Virus record (IMG/VR): IMGVR_UViG_3300010239_000003
Location: 1-24,811 of that record
DNA from: a virus
Direction: 5' to 3' (one strand)
Length of the DNA stretch: 24,811 bases
The translations under genes and the position numbers were made by a program. The notes under the pieces were generated by a model. The model had not been told where the DNA came from, made no database searches, and was given only the letters and a program-made list of their open reading frames with translations. This document shows positions 945 to 8,714 of this stretch, piece by piece; positions within the stretch are counted from its first letter, which is position 1, and each line of letters starts with the position of its first letter.

Positions 945-3900
945 TCATACTCCATATGCTCGTTTCTCACGGCTTATAGCATCACCAATAACCTTTAATA
1001 ATCGTGATCTGAACAGTTCATCCTCTAATAAGTTCCTTTTAACCTTATCAGGGATTTCAGCCTCTTTCAAGGCCTGTGTGACAGTTTCCTTAGAAACGCT
1101 ACCAGACGCTTTAACTTCGATATTGAAGGACAGGTCATGTCTTAAATTAACATCAACTGTCCTTGTTGTCTCCTTTGGTTTGAATAAGCGTTCTATCTCA
1201 GCTGATGATGTAGGCCCGCCATATCCACTAACCTTGGGGCTTGTCCACCCGTATCCTGCTTGGAAAGCCGTTGTATCCATCCATATGCCCGCCACACGTG
1301 CAGCGCAGTGAGGAATGCCTGCCCATGAAAGTCCACATGACACCCCGCAGGGAAGCCCGAAGAGGCTTGCATATTCACAAATAACCCTCGCACCATCGTA
1401 ACAATTGAAAGCACCCCTTGCAAGCAAAGCAGCAGCCGAAAGACCAGTACTACCATAGTAAAATGAGTAACGGGTTCTTCCTATCAAGGCAGCCATCAAA
1501 GCCATGAAACCAACCAAATTCCCTGCAAGGCCTCTGGGTGGCCATTGCACGAAATCGCCCGCTTTAAGGTTTAGTCCGGGGACTATGCTAACCCTGTAAG
1601 CGTCGATTGTCTTGTTAATCCATCTTATCCACTGTGGACTGTAGTCCCATCCTCCAAATCCTTTTTCTGGGGATCTGAGGTATTTTCTTAATTCTGAGGC
1701 GATTCTAAGATCCCTAATAGACCCTCTCAAGTTCGCTGGGTCTGGTAGTGTTATAGGCCTATTACGCTCACCAGAAACAGGCATAGGCCCAAAACCTAAG
1801 CCTAAACTTGTTGGAATCGATTTCCTCAATGAAGGGCCACAAGATCTGCAAATAGGCCCTCCAGCACCGGGCCCTCCAGCACCCGGATTCCTGACAAGAT
1901 TGTAAAACCGACGTATGTTAGCCGATAACGTGTTAATATGACTTGTGACCTTTGATTTTGTTCTTTTGGCAGCTGCAACTACTTTGTTTTTCATGTCGTT
2001 CCATGATGACTTCATATTTTCCATACCTGATTTGGTGGTCTTTACCATGGCGTCTGTGGCGGTTTTTAGGATGTTTTTGTTTTGGTTTTGTGATCTTGTG
2101 TTCGCATCCGTTATTGCCTTTAGGCCGGTGCTGATTGCTTGTTTTGATGAATCCATTGTTTTCTTATGAATATTTACCCATTCTCCCATTTTGGCATCGG
2201 TTTCTGTGACTACTGTTTGGAGTTTTTCATTGATTGTTTCCACATTTGTTTGTATTGTATCATTTACAGCCGCTGTGGCCTTTACAGCCGGTTTAGCAGT
2301 ATCAACATCAGCTAATGATGGAGTGCTTGGTGCTGGTAACTTTACAGTTGCATTTGAACGTATTACATTTGCAAAAGCTGAAGCTACCGAACCAGCACGA
2401 TCCTTCGAATCAGAGATATAATCGAGCACTCTATCGAATTCTCCAGAAATCTCCCTATAAATGTATCCCGGCGAACGGATGCCAAGTGTGCCAAGAACGG
2501 CGTTAAGGATGTCACTACCGATCTGCATTGCCTGACGGACAATGTATGGGCCAGCTGACCTTATACGGTCTCCTATCTTCAAGAATTCTTGGTAAACACG
2601 TCCAGGTAATTGTCTAACAAAGTTGATTACACCGTTTAGGATGTCGCTTCCAATTTTACGGGCTAAAGCAAGAGCTTGGTTTCCAAAACTGCTTATCCTT
2701 AAGATTGTGCTCCGTAACAAGCCCAATAATTGTGATGGGAGGCTCTGGAGGGCTTTCATGAACTCAGAACCCATTTTATGGCCTATCTCACTCATTTTGG
2801 ATGGTAAAGTAGCTAAGAATAGAATAAATTTGCCAGTAAGCTCCATAGTGTCCCAGATAACCCCATTAATGAGTGACATAGCCCCCCAAATCGCAGAACC
2901 AACTATATAAAGGATTTGGCCTATTTTAACAAGTATCTCCCACCATTGCTTCAAAATATCAACCATCTTCATGAGAATAGGCCAAAGGAAGGCTATAATG
3001 TCTGCAAGGATCTTTAGAACGGGTACTATGACATTTTGTATAACCCATGCTATAGCTTCTATAACTGGCTTTAAAGCCCTCAGGATGGCTGCAAGGATTT
3101 TTAAAGCAGGAACAACAAAAGTTTTAAGAATCCAAGCCACGATCTTAATTATGTCAACAAATAATTGCAATGGGGAGTTAGTGTCATCAATATTCTTCTT
3201 AGCATCATCCATTGAATTAGATAGGTCCTTTGTGGAGCTGCTTACATCATGCAATGGTTTTAAGGCTCTCATAAGCTCATTGAAGGCATCATGGAGAGCA
3301 TCCATAGCTGGTTGTAAAGCTCTCCATAATTCCTGTATTGCTTCTCTAACTTCATCCCATGCTTTCTTGAGGTCTGATAAGACTTTTTTGCCCTCAGCGC
3401 TCTTAACCCATTGATCCCATGCCATTTTTAGTTGATCTAATGCAAATTTGACCGTTCGCAGAGGGTTTAAGAGAAATGATATAGCCAATCCTAATGGTCC
3501 TAATTTGTCTGTGAGGATCTTAGCACCCTCACTTGAAAAAATTAGCTTCTTAGCAAAGTCAAAAAATGAATTAGCAGCATCTGTGACGGGTTTCAGAAAA
3601 TTTGTCAAGGATCTCCAACCATCACTCACCCACTTGACAAAACCATCCCATGCGCTCTTAAATTGGCTGCTAAGCCAAGCACCAAAGCCCTGCAGATAAT
3701 TCCATGCATTAGACGCTCCTTTCGTTAGATTGCTCCATGCATCTTGCAAGTTTTTCACAATAACATCATATAACCATTTAAGAGCATCAATAACCGGTTT
3801 TAAGGCCGTGACAAGAGCGTTCCAAGCTGCTACAAGGCCTCCCCATACCCATTCTGCGAATCCTTTGAGTTTTTCCCATAATCCCATCACAGCATTACGG

Positions 3901-6618: not shown

Positions 6619-7632
6619 TCAAGCAGATATGTCAGTCATATGATTCTTAAGGAGCACGTAGAAGTCTGTAGTAATTGTTCCACCACCAACCTTTGTCACT
6701 GTGCCTTTTTGAAGGCCTGTCATCTTGAATTTCAAATCAATAACATCCGTACCTTTAATTCCATAATCAGCCTCAAGCGTAGCGGCCGGCATTTTGATAG
6801 TCATCTGATTTCCACTGTTATCCATTGGTGTTATGGTCACTTCAGCCGATACTTCGCCGATGGAGTACCCCGGGCTGGTTGCTGATGAGCTGCCAAACTC
6901 TGCTTTCTTTATTATGCTATTCCACTGATCATTGAGCACCGCTGTGTCTAACTCGAGCGTTACGGTCCTTGATTGAGCTGGGGGCTGTATCTGCATGAAC
7001 CGTGAACCAAGACCAAACGCTAAGTCTTTCTTTATTTCATTGTCGATCTCAATAGTCAGGTTTTGAGCTGGGGCTGGTAATGTGGTGTTATCTATCTTAA
7101 CAGTCGTCTCGTAGAAGGCCAAAGGCGTATCAGCGAACCCGGATGGTGGGGTTGGTTCAGAGGGTAATGTTGCTATCTCTGATGCTGTTTTTGCCACCCC
7201 TTTACCACTGAATGTGATTAGTTCTTTTTTCATGTCTAATTTGAGATTATTTATGATTGTGCCTGCGTATTGCCTTTTAAACTCGTCGAAAGCTGCGAAA
7301 AGTGTGAAAGAAGGTAGCAGAATGGTGTTTCCCCCATAAAACTCATGAGAGTTTGGTTGTTCTGATGTTCCAGCTGTGTAGATATAGTCTCCTGAAACCC
7401 CATATAAGAAGTGCCCAAGGCGTTCAAGATCGGCATATCCCTCAAAATCAATTGATTGACTGTATTCGCCTGGTCTCACGATTTTTGGGGCTCTTGCACT
7501 TAGCGTTTCACGTGTAAGGTTCTCTCCTTCAATTTTCGGGTTGAAAGAAGACAATTCGGCATAGAATGAAACAGTGCTTTCAGCAACGCCGAATTGTGCT
7601 TCCTTTTTTAAGCCTACTTTTCGTTCTCCCAT
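6619..7632 (-). CDS. Major tail tube protein
   Basis: 337 aa beta-rich; N-terminal VGLKKEAQFG pattern and PSFTL motif typical of siphoviral tube proteins; position; GAGGTGA SD. Confidence 0.85.
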   Translation of the reverse strand: MGERKVGLKKEAQFGVAESTVSFYAELSSFNPKIEGENLTRETLSARAPKIVRPGEYSQSIDFEGYADLERLGHFLYGVSGDYIYTAGTSEQPNSHEFYGGNTILLPSFTLFAAFDEFKRQYAGTIINNLKLDMKKELITFSGKGVAKTASEIATLPSEPTPPSGFADTPLAFYETTVKIDNTTLPAPAQNLTIEIDNEIKKDLAFGLGSRFMQIQPPAQSRTVTLELDTAVLNDQWNSIIKKAEFGSSSATSPGYSIGEVSAEVTITPMDNSGNQMTIKMPAATLEADYGIKGTDVIDLKFKMTGLQKGTVTKVGGGTITTDFYVLLKNHMTDISA

Positions 7633-7678
7633 CGTTTATCACCTCAAAATTTGATTTATAATCCTTTTATTATGAAAA

Positions 7679-7769
7679 TGGGGTTGCTGGGATTTGAACC
7701 CAGATCCTAAGATCTCACCAACGTCTTTTTTTCTGGAGTCTTAGATGCTGGCCATTACACCACAACCCC
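7679..7769 (-). tRNA. tRNA-Trp (CCA) with canonical 37/38 intron; CCA end not encoded
   Basis: Acceptor GGGGTTG/CAACCCC plus A73; D arm GTGT-AATGGCCA-GCAT; anticodon stem TAAGA/TCTTA with CT-CCA-G|A; T arm CTGGG-TTCAAAT-CCCAG; exons 37 and 35 nt. Confidence 0.92.
7714..7732 (-). other. 19-nt archaeal tRNA intron with bulge-helix-bulge-like boundaries
   Basis: AAAAAAAGACGTTGGTGAG; C32-U33-C34-C35 pairs with GGUG (one U.U mismatch); 3-nt bulges AG|A and AG|A; 2-bp outer helix. Confidence 0.85.
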
Positions 7770-7771
7770 AA

Positions 7772-8212
7772 TTATGGTTTGGATCTTATCAGGAAGCTTA
7801 TTTGTCCTGATGTGATGAAAAGGTTCTTTTCTCGTATTTCATCACCAATATAATCGAGTTTTTGCAAGCGTATGTTCTGTACATAGGCTCTGGTTTCTGG
7901 TTTTGACTTGAAACCGTCTCTTATAAGCTTGAAGGCCTTCGCAACGAGTGATGCTCCTTCCATTGGGTTTTTAAGGATTGTGCGGGGTTTTATCAGGACT
8001 AACAAGTCTATGTTGTATCTATACAAATCCATGTGCATCTCCTCAGCCTCAAAAGAAAGATTATCAGGGATTATCCAGACAATTGGCAAACTCTTAAGCT
8101 TTGATGTGATCAAAGGCCCATATAAAACCTTTTTCACCCCAAGCCCCTCTGGTGTGAGGATATTTAGCACATTAGAGACAACCAATTCAATTATATCGTA
8201 TATTTCTTCCAT
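7772..8212 (-). CDS. Putative tail terminator / tail completion protein
   Basis: ~146 aa immediately before the tail tube gene; LPIVWI pattern as in gpU/gp17-like proteins; called largely from position. Confidence 0.6.
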   Translation of the reverse strand: MEEIYDIIELVVSNVLNILTPEGLGVKKVLYGPLITSKLKSLPIVWIIPDNLSFEAEEMHMDLYRYNIDLLVLIKPRTILKNPMEGASLVAKAFKLIRDGFKSKPETRAYVQNIRLQKLDYIGDEIREKNLFITSGQISFLIRSKP

Positions 8213-8237
8213 CTTCAAACCCCTGCTTCTTATAGGC

Positions 8238-8714
8238 CTATTTCAAGATCCGGCTCGCCACATATTGGTAAATCCTATCAGCATCTTTATAGAGGTCTTT
8301 CTCGGCTTTCCCAGTCATGTCGAATGGTTTTATTCCTGCAACTTTTTTTGCATAGATACAATCAGCACCCTTCTCACAAGGCTTTCCTGTAAGAGTCCAT
8401 GCTAACGCTTTTGCTTTTACGGGTTTGATGTATTTTTTTTTAGGTCCGTGAATTCCTGTCCCTTTGTCAAGATATTCGAAATAGAACTTTGGTGTGGCTT
8501 TATATGATAATTCACCCATTTTCTTGAAGACTATGCTGGATCTGAGGCCTCCACCACCACCTCTGCCGCTGCGGGCTGGTGTGTACCCTACAAGCTGTTG
8601 TTCATAGAATCTAACAGCTTTTTCAGTACCTTGCCGTAAAAATTCTTCGAATCTTTCTGAAAGAAGCGATTTAAACCGTTCAAGATCCTTGAGATTGACC
8701 ACAATACGTACCAT
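8238..8714 (-). CDS. HK97 gp10-like neck/tail completion protein
   Basis: TPARSG...LRSSI and YLDKGTGIHGP...IKP...AKAL motifs; basic; TAATG overlap with upstream gene. Confidence 0.75.
   Translation of the reverse strand: MVRIVVNLKDLERFKSLLSERFEEFLRQGTEKAVRFYEQQLVGYTPARSGRGGGGGLRSSIVFKKMGELSYKATPKFYFEYLDKGTGIHGPKKKYIKPVKAKALAWTLTGKPCEKGADCIYAKKVAGIKPFDMTGKAEKDLYKDADRIYQYVASRILK

What the first reader, a model, noticed from the sequence alone, without database searches (positions are those of the whole stretch)
7679..7769. Intron-containing tRNA-Trp embedded in the tail morphogenesis operon
Seen: a complete tRNA-Trp(CCA) begins 2 nt after the tail-terminator stop and ends 46 nt before the tail tube start, so it is not at an att-like position. 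Its 19-nt intron has a U.U mismatch in the BHB central helix and no C/D boxes. The downstream proteins are Trp-rich (about 36 Trp in TMP and 11 in the first 313 aa of the next gene, by hand count). Known: maturation needs RNase P, RNase Z, EndA and CCA addition. Inference: (a) excision would cut the late polycistronic RNA between head/neck and tail genes (tRNA punctuation); (b) it supplies Trp decoding for tail proteins or replaces a host tRNA destroyed by an anticodon nuclease; (c) the imperfect BHB could make supply splicing-limited.
Basis: partly seen in the sequence, partly recalled or inferred. Interest (0 to 1): 0.7.

Follow-up and report, generated by a model that had tools for sequence, protein, structure and literature searches.

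The report
Methanogen virus tRNA-Trp with mini-intron
A tailed virus of methane-producing archaea carries its own tryptophan tRNA gene, split by a tiny 19-base archaeal-type intron and wedged between two tail genes. It is a real but optional cassette that related viruses have swapped, and it is an uncommon example of a known kind of viral gene.

Summary
A complete tRNA-Trp(CCA) gene lies at 7679-7769 on the minus strand (Rfam 53.2 bits; ARAGORN finds it only with intron search). It has a 19-nt intron at 37/38 and no encoded CCA. It starts 2 nt after the stop of a gene I confirmed by structure as a tail terminator, and ends 46 nt before the tail-tube start.

The window is an IMG/VR viral record. 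Its closest isolate is Methanobacterium virus PhiF3 (capsid 67% identical).

The tRNA is a lineage-specific insertion: ten related contigs, PhiF3 included, have only a spacer of about 20-50 nt at this junction. One relative that is about 73% identical overall (L134) carries the identical tRNA. It sits inside a 218-nt block with two mismatches, which points to recent recombinational exchange. A third relative (L135) has an intronless tRNA-Trp at a different site, with the same D-arm and a similar 3' flank.

The splice motif is weak: a U·U mismatch in the central helix and only two A-U pairs in the outer helix. There are no C/D boxes.

Trp use in the tRNA-less relatives is only slightly lower, so the Trp-rich-tail argument is weak. 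I could not obtain a host tRNA-Trp for comparison.

Verdict: a new member of a known kind (virus-encoded, host-spliced tRNA), of moderate interest. This scan has already noted intron-bearing tRNAs in other archaeal viruses.

The parts
7679..7769 (-). pre-tRNA-Trp(CCA), 91 nt, no encoded CCA
   Evidence: Rfam RF00005 53.2 bits, full model; ARAGORN -i calls Trp(cca) with a 19-nt intron
7733..7769 (-). 5' exon (tRNA positions 1-37, ending CUCCAG)
   Evidence: parse; the anticodon loop CUCCAG|A is the same as in cellular archaeal tRNA-Trp genes
7714..7732 (-). 19-nt intron at canonical position 37/38; weak BHB (central helix with a U.U mismatch, 2-bp A-U outer helix); no C/D boxes
   Evidence: sequence
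7679..7713 (-). 3' exon (positions 38-73), discriminator A73
7633..7678 (-). A/T-rich spacer. It starts with TTTT directly after the tRNA and ends with the Shine-Dalgarno sequence GAGGTGAT of the tube gene. Its first ~14 nt (TTTTCATAATAAA) resemble the 3' flank of the L135 tRNA-Trp.
7638..7855 (-). Recombination tract shared with relative L134: 218 nt with 2 mismatches, against ~72% identity in the flanks. It covers the last ~28 codons of the terminator gene, the tRNA and the spacer.
   Evidence: alignment A2; sliding identity and exact runs
7772..8218 (-). tail terminator gene (148 aa), upstream neighbour
   Evidence: AF2 model pLDDT 83.7; Foldseek hits lambda gpU 3fz2 at E 5.6e-7 and T5 p142
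6619..7632 (-). tail tube gene (337 aa), downstream neighbour
   Evidence: PF18906 Phage_tube_2 2.5e-15; phrog_290

Best explanation
This is a genuine virus-encoded tRNA-Trp(CCA) gene of archaeal type. It is carried as an optional, moron-like cassette between the tail-terminator and tail-tube genes of a PhiF3-like siphovirus (Methanobavirales/Anaerodiviridae-like) that infects Methanobacteriaceae. I infer that it has no promoter of its own and is transcribed with the late operon. Host enzymes would then release and mature it: RNase P and RNase Z trim the ends, the splicing endonuclease EndA and the ligase RtcB remove the 19-nt intron, and the CCA-adding enzyme completes the 3' end. The mature tRNA would add to, or secure, decoding of the single Trp codon UGG late in infection. 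As a side effect, its excision would cut the polycistronic RNA just upstream of the tube gene, whose Shine-Dalgarno sequence stays intact. The short intron is most simply a trimmed relic of the intron that euryarchaeal tRNA-Trp genes normally carry, not a regulatory device. The cassette spreads between related viruses by homologous recombination through the conserved flanks.
For: Shown: the tRNA matches the full model with all stems intact. It has G1-C72 and A73, and the same CUCCAGA anticodon loop as cellular archaeal tRNA-Trp genes. It lies on the same strand as all genes, with viral structural genes on both sides. It is absent from the same junction in ten related contigs, PhiF3 included (L002-L007, L135, L136, L140, L141). 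The identical gene sits at the same site in L134, inside a 218-nt tract with 2 mismatches, while the genomes are ~72% identical; this is the longest exact run in 7.2 kb. A second, intronless viral tRNA-Trp in L135 has an identical D-arm, a similar 3' flank and six compensatory stem changes, which indicates a maintained cloverleaf. The virus encodes a RecT recombinase. Viral proteins contain 1.65% Trp, and tail proteins 2.15%. Literature: tRNA genes, one of them with an intron, are known in archaeal tailed viruses (PMC8651126, PMC13532342).
Against: There is no expression, splicing or charging evidence. The BHB is weak: the canonical fold is +2.1 kcal/mol against an MFE of -3.1, with a U.U mismatch and a 2-bp outer helix. 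The alpha4/alpha2 EndA enzymes of euryarchaea are reported to cut only canonical BHBs (PMC4033280), although A. fulgidus EndA cuts a bulge-helix-loop at 37/38 in full-length pre-tRNA (PMC6379350). Most relatives do without the tRNA, and their Trp usage is only slightly lower, so any benefit from extra decoding capacity is at best modest. The window and L134 copies are identical, so they say nothing about purifying selection. The host tRNA-Trp could not be retrieved, so the origin and any difference from the host tRNA are unknown.
Confidence: 0.55

Rival explanations
1. Counter-defence spare part. The host, or the virus itself, inactivates the single-copy host tRNA-Trp during infection, for example with a PIN/VapC-type anticodon nuclease. 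The viral copy, with its A/U-rich anticodon stem and different precursor, escapes and keeps UGG decoding alive.
For: tRNA-Trp recurs as the only tRNA in this virus group, in two different gene forms and at two sites. The cassette has spread between lineages that are ~72% identical. Codon demand alone does not explain it. Precedent: M. tuberculosis VapC29/VapC37 cleave tRNA-Trp(CCA) in the anticodon loop (PMC6118392). That phage tRNAs can rescue tRNA-targeting defences is my own knowledge, not checked here.
Against: No nuclease has been identified in the virus or in any host. The viral anticodon loop is the standard archaeal CUCCAGA, with no escape change in the loop. The host tRNA was not available for comparison.
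Confidence: 0.2
2. Neutral or selfish hitchhiker, possibly a poorly spliced or non-functional gene. A tRNA gene was captured by illegitimate recombination and is passed around by the frequent mosaic recombination of these viruses, with no benefit to them.
For: It is rare, found in 3 of about 20 close relatives among 96 loci scanned. The BHB is weak. The L135 copy has two stem mismatches (G2.G71, A31.C39), which suggests decay. Other recombination tracts exist between the window and L134.
Against: The window copy has flawless stems and conserved tertiary positions. The tRNA tract is the single most conserved stretch in 7.2 kb. Two different viral tRNA-Trp forms keep the cloverleaf through six compensatory changes.
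Confidence: 0.15
3. RNA-processing punctuation is the main function. The tRNA exists chiefly to let RNase P and RNase Z cut the late transcript between the neck and tail genes and so uncouple their expression or stability.
For: The gene lies exactly between the terminator and tube genes, 2 nt after the stop codon. A run of T follows the tRNA, and the tube gene keeps its own SD.
Against: Ten relatives express the same genes with only a short spacer and no tRNA. The L135 tRNA-Trp sits in a quite different place. This role would not explain why the tRNA is Trp in both cases.
Confidence: 0.07
4. attP or integration remnant: a piece of host tRNA-Trp left by, or used for, site-specific integration.
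For: Many archaeal viruses integrate into tRNA genes (PMC4090602, PMC8651126).
Against: The tRNA is full length, not a 3' fragment. No integrase lies nearby or anywhere in the window. Both flanks are viral structural genes with an intact junction in relatives. Anaerodiviridae proviruses are reported in intergenic or protein-coding sites, not in tRNA genes (PMC8651126).
Confidence: 0.03

Closest known systems
tRNA genes of archaeal tailed viruses (e.g. HGTV-1 with 34 tRNA genes, one with an intron; Hafunaviridae, Druskaviridae) (PMC13532342, PMC8651126)
   Same: A virus-encoded, archaeal-type tRNA that depends on host maturation enzymes. An intron in a viral tRNA has already been reported once for HGTV-1.
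   Different: This is a single tRNA in a small (~30 kb) methanogen siphovirus, not an array in a large haloarchaeal myovirus. It sits inside the neck/tail gene block. The published relatives PhiF3 (first 29.5 kb scanned) and psiM2 (the 16-kb part scanned) show no tRNA.
Cellular euryarchaeal tRNA-Trp gene with a box C/D intron (Haloferax, Pyrococcus sR50; PMC7994747)
   Same: The same isoacceptor, the same CUCCAG|A loop, an intron at 37/38, and an intron 3' end that pairs with the anticodon loop.
   Different: The intron is 19 nt, against a median of 61 nt in 29 cellular genes parsed here. It has no C/D boxes, so it cannot guide Cm34/Um39 itself.
Phage 'morons' and single tRNA genes inserted between phage structural genes
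   Same: An optional accessory gene inserted precisely in an intergenic spacer of the late operon, absent from close relatives and moved by recombination.
   Different: The cargo is an intron-bearing archaeal tRNA, and no promoter of its own is evident.
Intron-bearing tRNAs noted in other archaeal viruses by this scan (e1-5829218, e1-5268224, e1-5908222, e1-3475535; unchecked AI notes)
   Same: Viral tRNA genes with BHB-type introns at 37/38.
   Different: Those introns are long (66-140 nt) and were read as carrying cargo RNAs. This one is minimal, with no room for cargo, and the tRNA is Trp rather than Gln or Lys.

Membership tests
tRNA (Rfam RF00005) | Covariance-model score above the gathering threshold over the full model | tested here: met
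   53.2 bits against 29, model positions 1-71
tRNA (Rfam RF00005) | Four intact cloverleaf stems and conserved U8, G18G19, U33 and the T-loop | tested here: met
   All stem pairs are standard; sequence
Archaeal-type tRNA-Trp | Anticodon CCA, G1-C72 and A73 (bacterial tRNA-Trp has A1-U72 and G73; this criterion is my own knowledge) | tested here: met
   Contrast: the bacterial-type tRNA-Trp of the jumbo phage has A1-U72 and G73.
Archaeal-type tRNA-Trp | Charged by archaeal TrpRS and used in translation | not testable with these tools
   Needs biochemistry
Archaeal BHB intron | Located at the canonical position 37/38 | tested here: met
Archaeal BHB intron | Two 3-nt bulges separated by a 4-bp helix (strict hBHBh') | tested here: inconclusive
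   Both bulges (A-G|A) can form, but the central helix has 3 of 4 pairs (U33.U) and the outer helix only 2 A-U pairs. The BHB fold is +2.1 kcal/mol against an MFE of -3.1. The same C-G/U.U/C-G/C-G helix occurs in a cellular Aenigmatarchaeota tRNA-Trp (L040).
Archaeal BHB intron | Cleaved by EndA and ligated by RtcB | not testable with these tools
   Needs an in vitro or in vivo assay
Box C/D intron of euryarchaeal pre-tRNA-Trp | Box C (RUGAUGA) and box D (CUGA) with guide sequences for C34 and U39 | tested here: not met
   The 19-nt intron AAAAAAAGACGUUGGUGAG contains neither box (sequence)
Virus-encoded accessory tRNA (moron-like) | Lies within a viral genome between viral genes and is absent from close relatives | tested here: met
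attP / tRNA integration site | A partial tRNA next to an integrase; provirus borders at the tRNA | tested here: not met
   The tRNA is full length; the window has no integrase

The most novel reading that the evidence does not exclude
Methanobacteriaceae viruses repeatedly acquire and exchange a private tRNA-Trp because the host's single tRNA-Trp is a point of attack during infection, for example by a PIN/VapC-like or other anticodon nuclease, or by virus-induced shut-off. The viral copies would be built to escape, with an A/U-rich anticodon stem and a minimal or absent intron that frees them from the host's intron-linked C/D modification pathway. That would be the first tRNA-based defence/counter-defence axis described in archaea.
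Probability: 0.15. Interest if true: 0.7.

Novelty: new member of a known kind. Interest (0 to 1): 0.42.

Why it matters
How virus-encoded tRNAs function in archaea has not been studied systematically (PMC13532342). I found no report of a tRNA gene in a methanogen virus in the papers I searched, and the GenBank virus collection holds no match to this one. This case offers three natural forms of one cassette within a single virus group: absent, with a 19-nt intron, and intronless. PhiF3, an isolated relative with a cultivable Methanothermobacter host, could serve as a chassis. With these, one can ask what a single viral tRNA-Trp contributes, whether a minimal, imperfect BHB is spliced by a euryarchaeal endonuclease, and whether the C/D-guided methylation normally tied to the tRNA-Trp intron is needed. 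If the tRNA turns out simply to top up decoding, the finding is ordinary.

Tried and rejected
1. Host tRNA-Trp comparison failed.
None was Methanobacteriales and none was near-identical.
- Using a Methanocaldococcus genome as centre reached only a 40-genome phylum with no relatives.
- Loci from Logan and NCBI could not be mapped to held genomes.
- The look-up of encoding contigs closed.

2. Exact and relaxed pattern scans of viral contigs and metagenome contigs found no further copies. They found only an unrelated bacterial-type tRNA-Trp in a 142-kb jumbo-phage tRNA array.

3. BLAST against GenBank viruses gave no match for the window tRNA. The L135 tRNA hit only generic attP fragments of SSV and TPV1.

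4. I looked in the window for a remnant of the L135-type tRNA upstream of terS. There is none; the gap holds a 49-aa zinc-ribbon ORF.

5. I considered an own promoter for the tRNA. The only TATA-like motif upstream (ATTATATT at about -80) is coding sequence conserved in tRNA-less relatives. The available promoter scanner is sigma-70 only, so I did not use it.

6. My parse of cellular BHBs assumes a fixed 37/38 register and resolved only 31 of about 120 genes, so it serves only as a rough yardstick.

7. Two papers were not held in the library: Clouet-d'Orval 2001 (PMC92551) and Marck & Grosjean 2003 (PMC1370505).

Full report
**What is there.** The window is a complete IMG/VR viral record of 24,811 bp. 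It is linear, and CheckV rates it 78% complete. All sizeable ORFs lie on the minus strand.

Rfam's tRNA model matches 7679-7769 (-) end to end at 53.2 bits, against a gathering score of 29 (E 5e-9). ARAGORN in its default mode misses the gene. With intron search it calls tRNA-Trp(cca) with a 19-nt intron.

Read from the sequence, the gene consists of:
- a 37-nt 5' exon ending CUCCAG (7733-7769);
- a 19-nt intron, AAAAAAAGACGUUGGUGAG (7714-7732);
- a 35-nt 3' exon (7679-7713).

The mature tRNA is 72 nt. All four stems are made of standard pairs. It has G1-C72 and discriminator A73, and no CCA is encoded.

**Neighbours.**
- The downstream ORF (6619-7632) is a tail tube protein (PF18906, 2.5e-15).
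- The upstream 148-aa ORF has no family hit. An AlphaFold model built on five homologues (pLDDT 83.7) matches the lambda tail terminator gpU (3fz2, E 5.6e-7) and T5 p142.
- Further upstream lie a gp10-like neck protein, a gp6-like connector, the capsid protein, a protease, a Mu-F-like protein, the portal and the terminase. Downstream lie chaperone-like ORFs and a 1556-aa tape measure protein.
- The window has no integrase. A RecT recombinase is encoded at 23557-24543.

**Which virus.** The capsid protein is 67% identical to that of Methanobacterium virus PhiF3. PhiF3 infects Methanothermobacter thermautotrophicus and belongs to Anaerodiviridae, Methanobavirales. More distant hits are Drs3, psiM100 and psiM2. 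One terminase relative is annotated as coming from a Methanobacteriaceae MAG. The window has 40.6% G+C against 49.7% for PhiF3. This suggests a lower-GC Methanobacteriaceae host; that is an inference.

**Is the position conserved? No.**
- PhiF3, five IMG/VR relatives (tube protein 76-83% identical) and four Logan/NCBI contigs have only a spacer of about 20-50 nt between the terminator stop and the tube Shine-Dalgarno sequence. None has a tRNA there.
- ARAGORN with intron search over the window and 95 related viral loci found tRNA-Trp only in the window, L134 and L135.
- L134 is a 24-kb Logan contig whose capsid is 80% identical to the window's. It carries the identical tRNA, intron included, at the same junction.
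- The two genomes are about 72% identical at the nucleotide level. Yet window 7638-7855 is identical to L134 except for two positions. This tract covers the last ~28 codons of the terminator gene, the tRNA and the spacer up to the Shine-Dalgarno sequence.
- One of the two differences changes the stop codon from TAA to TGA. The tract contains the longest exact run (135 nt) in a 7.2-kb collinear alignment.
- Identity at synonymous sites of the flanking codons points to a recent recombination tract rather than to selection on the RNA alone.

**A second viral tRNA-Trp.** L135 is a 55% G+C relative with a 72% identical capsid. It has no tRNA at the terminator/tube junction. Instead it carries an intronless tRNA-Trp(CCA) upstream of its terminase genes (45 bits).
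- It shares with the window tRNA an identical D-arm, including both G.U pairs, the same anticodon and T loops, and a similar 3' flank (TTTTCAT[A/T]ATAAA).
- It differs by six compensatory stem changes and has two mismatches, G2.G71 and A31.C39.
- tRNA-Trp is therefore a recurrent cargo in this virus group. It occurs in two gene forms and at two sites, and the intron is dispensable.

**The intron.**
- In the canonical register, the 3' bulge is A-G|A38.
- The central helix is C32-G, U33.U, C34-G, C35-G.
- The 5' bulge is A36-G37|A.
- The outer helix has only two A-U pairs closing an 8-nt loop.
- That fold scores +2.1 kcal/mol. The MFE of the arm (-3.1 kcal/mol) is a different, non-BHB pairing.
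- If only the bulges and the central helix are enforced, the cost over the MFE is 2.6 kcal/mol. This lies within the 0-12 kcal/mol range I obtained for 29 cellular tRNA-Trp genes, although my fixed-register parse is crude.
- The two Methanocaldococcus genes have 4 of 4 central pairs, a 4-bp outer helix and a cost of 0-1.2 kcal/mol.
- The same U.U-containing helix occurs in a cellular Aenigmatarchaeota tRNA-Trp with a 22-nt intron.
- According to the literature, euryarchaeal alpha4 and alpha2 endonucleases cut only canonical BHBs (PMC4033280). However, the A. fulgidus enzyme removes a bulge-helix-loop intron at 37/38 from full-length pre-tRNA (PMC6379350).
- Whether this intron is spliced efficiently remains open.
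- It has no C/D boxes, unlike the tRNA-Trp introns of Haloferax and Pyrococcus, which guide Cm34 and Um39 (PMC7994747).

**Function.** Trp makes up 1.65% of the window's proteins: 2.44% of the tape measure protein (38 Trp), 3.4% of the next ORF (11 of 323 residues), 2.15% of the ORFs downstream of the tRNA and 1.42% of those upstream. But PhiF3, which has no tRNA in the 29.5 kb scanned, has 1.42% overall and 1.95% in its tape measure protein. L140, also without the tRNA, has 1.31%. Trp richness is thus a trait of the whole group, and it does not separate carriers from non-carriers.

I still rate extra or secured UGG decoding as the most likely role, because that is what a correctly built tRNA-Trp does. 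The weak fit with codon demand, the recurrence of Trp in particular, and the spread of the cassette between diverged lineages keep a counter-defence reading alive. The only precedent I can cite is bacterial: M. tuberculosis VapC29/37 cleave tRNA-Trp(CCA) (PMC6118392).

Cutting of the late transcript by tRNA excision is a likely by-product. It is not needed by the ten relatives that lack the gene.

An attP or integration-remnant reading is disfavoured for three reasons: the tRNA is full length, both flanks are viral, and there is no integrase.

**Origin.** I could not obtain any Methanobacteriales tRNA-Trp.

**Comparison with what is known.** tRNA genes are well known in phages and in haloarchaeal tailed viruses. 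HGTV-1 has 34, one of them with an intron (PMC13532342, PMC8651126). Earlier notes of this scan describe intron-bearing tRNA-Gln and tRNA-Lys genes in other archaeal viruses; these are unchecked AI notes, and I use them only as context. What is new here is the host group (methanogen siphoviruses), the minimal intron, and the evidence that the gene is an optional cassette exchanged by recombination, with an intronless sister form.

I therefore class it as a new member of a known kind, of moderate interest.

Noticed in passing
L135:3071-3144 (+): An intronless tRNA-Trp(CCA) in a 55% G+C relative, upstream of the terminase genes. It has the same D-arm and a similar 3' flank as the window tRNA, but carries a G2.G71 mismatch (or a bulged G in the acceptor 3' strand) and an A31.C39 mismatch. 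It may be decaying.
   Followed up: partly
window 23557-24543 (-): A RecT-family single-strand annealing protein (PF03837, 4e-36). This fits the mosaic recombination tracts seen between the window and L134.
   Followed up: no
window 1344-2375 and 8534-8633: Two further high-identity tracts shared with L134: 90% over ~1 kb in the C-terminal part of the tape measure gene, and 94% over 100 nt in the gp10-like gene. The background identity is ~72%.
   Followed up: partly
L137:1995-5227 (= L138, L142): An unrelated 142-kb jumbo-phage contig with an array of 19 tRNA genes. It includes a bacterial-type tRNA-Trp (A1-U72, G73) that happens to share the D-arm and anticodon-loop pattern I used for the scan.
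   Followed up: partly
window 19250-19399 (-): A 49-aa ORF with two CxxC pairs (zinc-ribbon-like), below the 60-aa ORF cut-off, in the apparent 316-nt gap upstream of the small terminase region. PhiF3 and L135 have TF zinc-ribbon ORFs in the comparable region.
   Followed up: partly
window 20912-23485 (-): An 857-aa ORF with no Pfam or PHROG hit, next to RecT in the replication/recombination module.
   Followed up: no
window 7654-7661 (-): The spacer after the tRNA contains TTATAAAT, a TATA-box-like motif about 22 nt upstream of the tube ATG, preceded by AAAAGG. It could be a chance A/T-rich match or a promoter that came in with the cassette.
   Followed up: no
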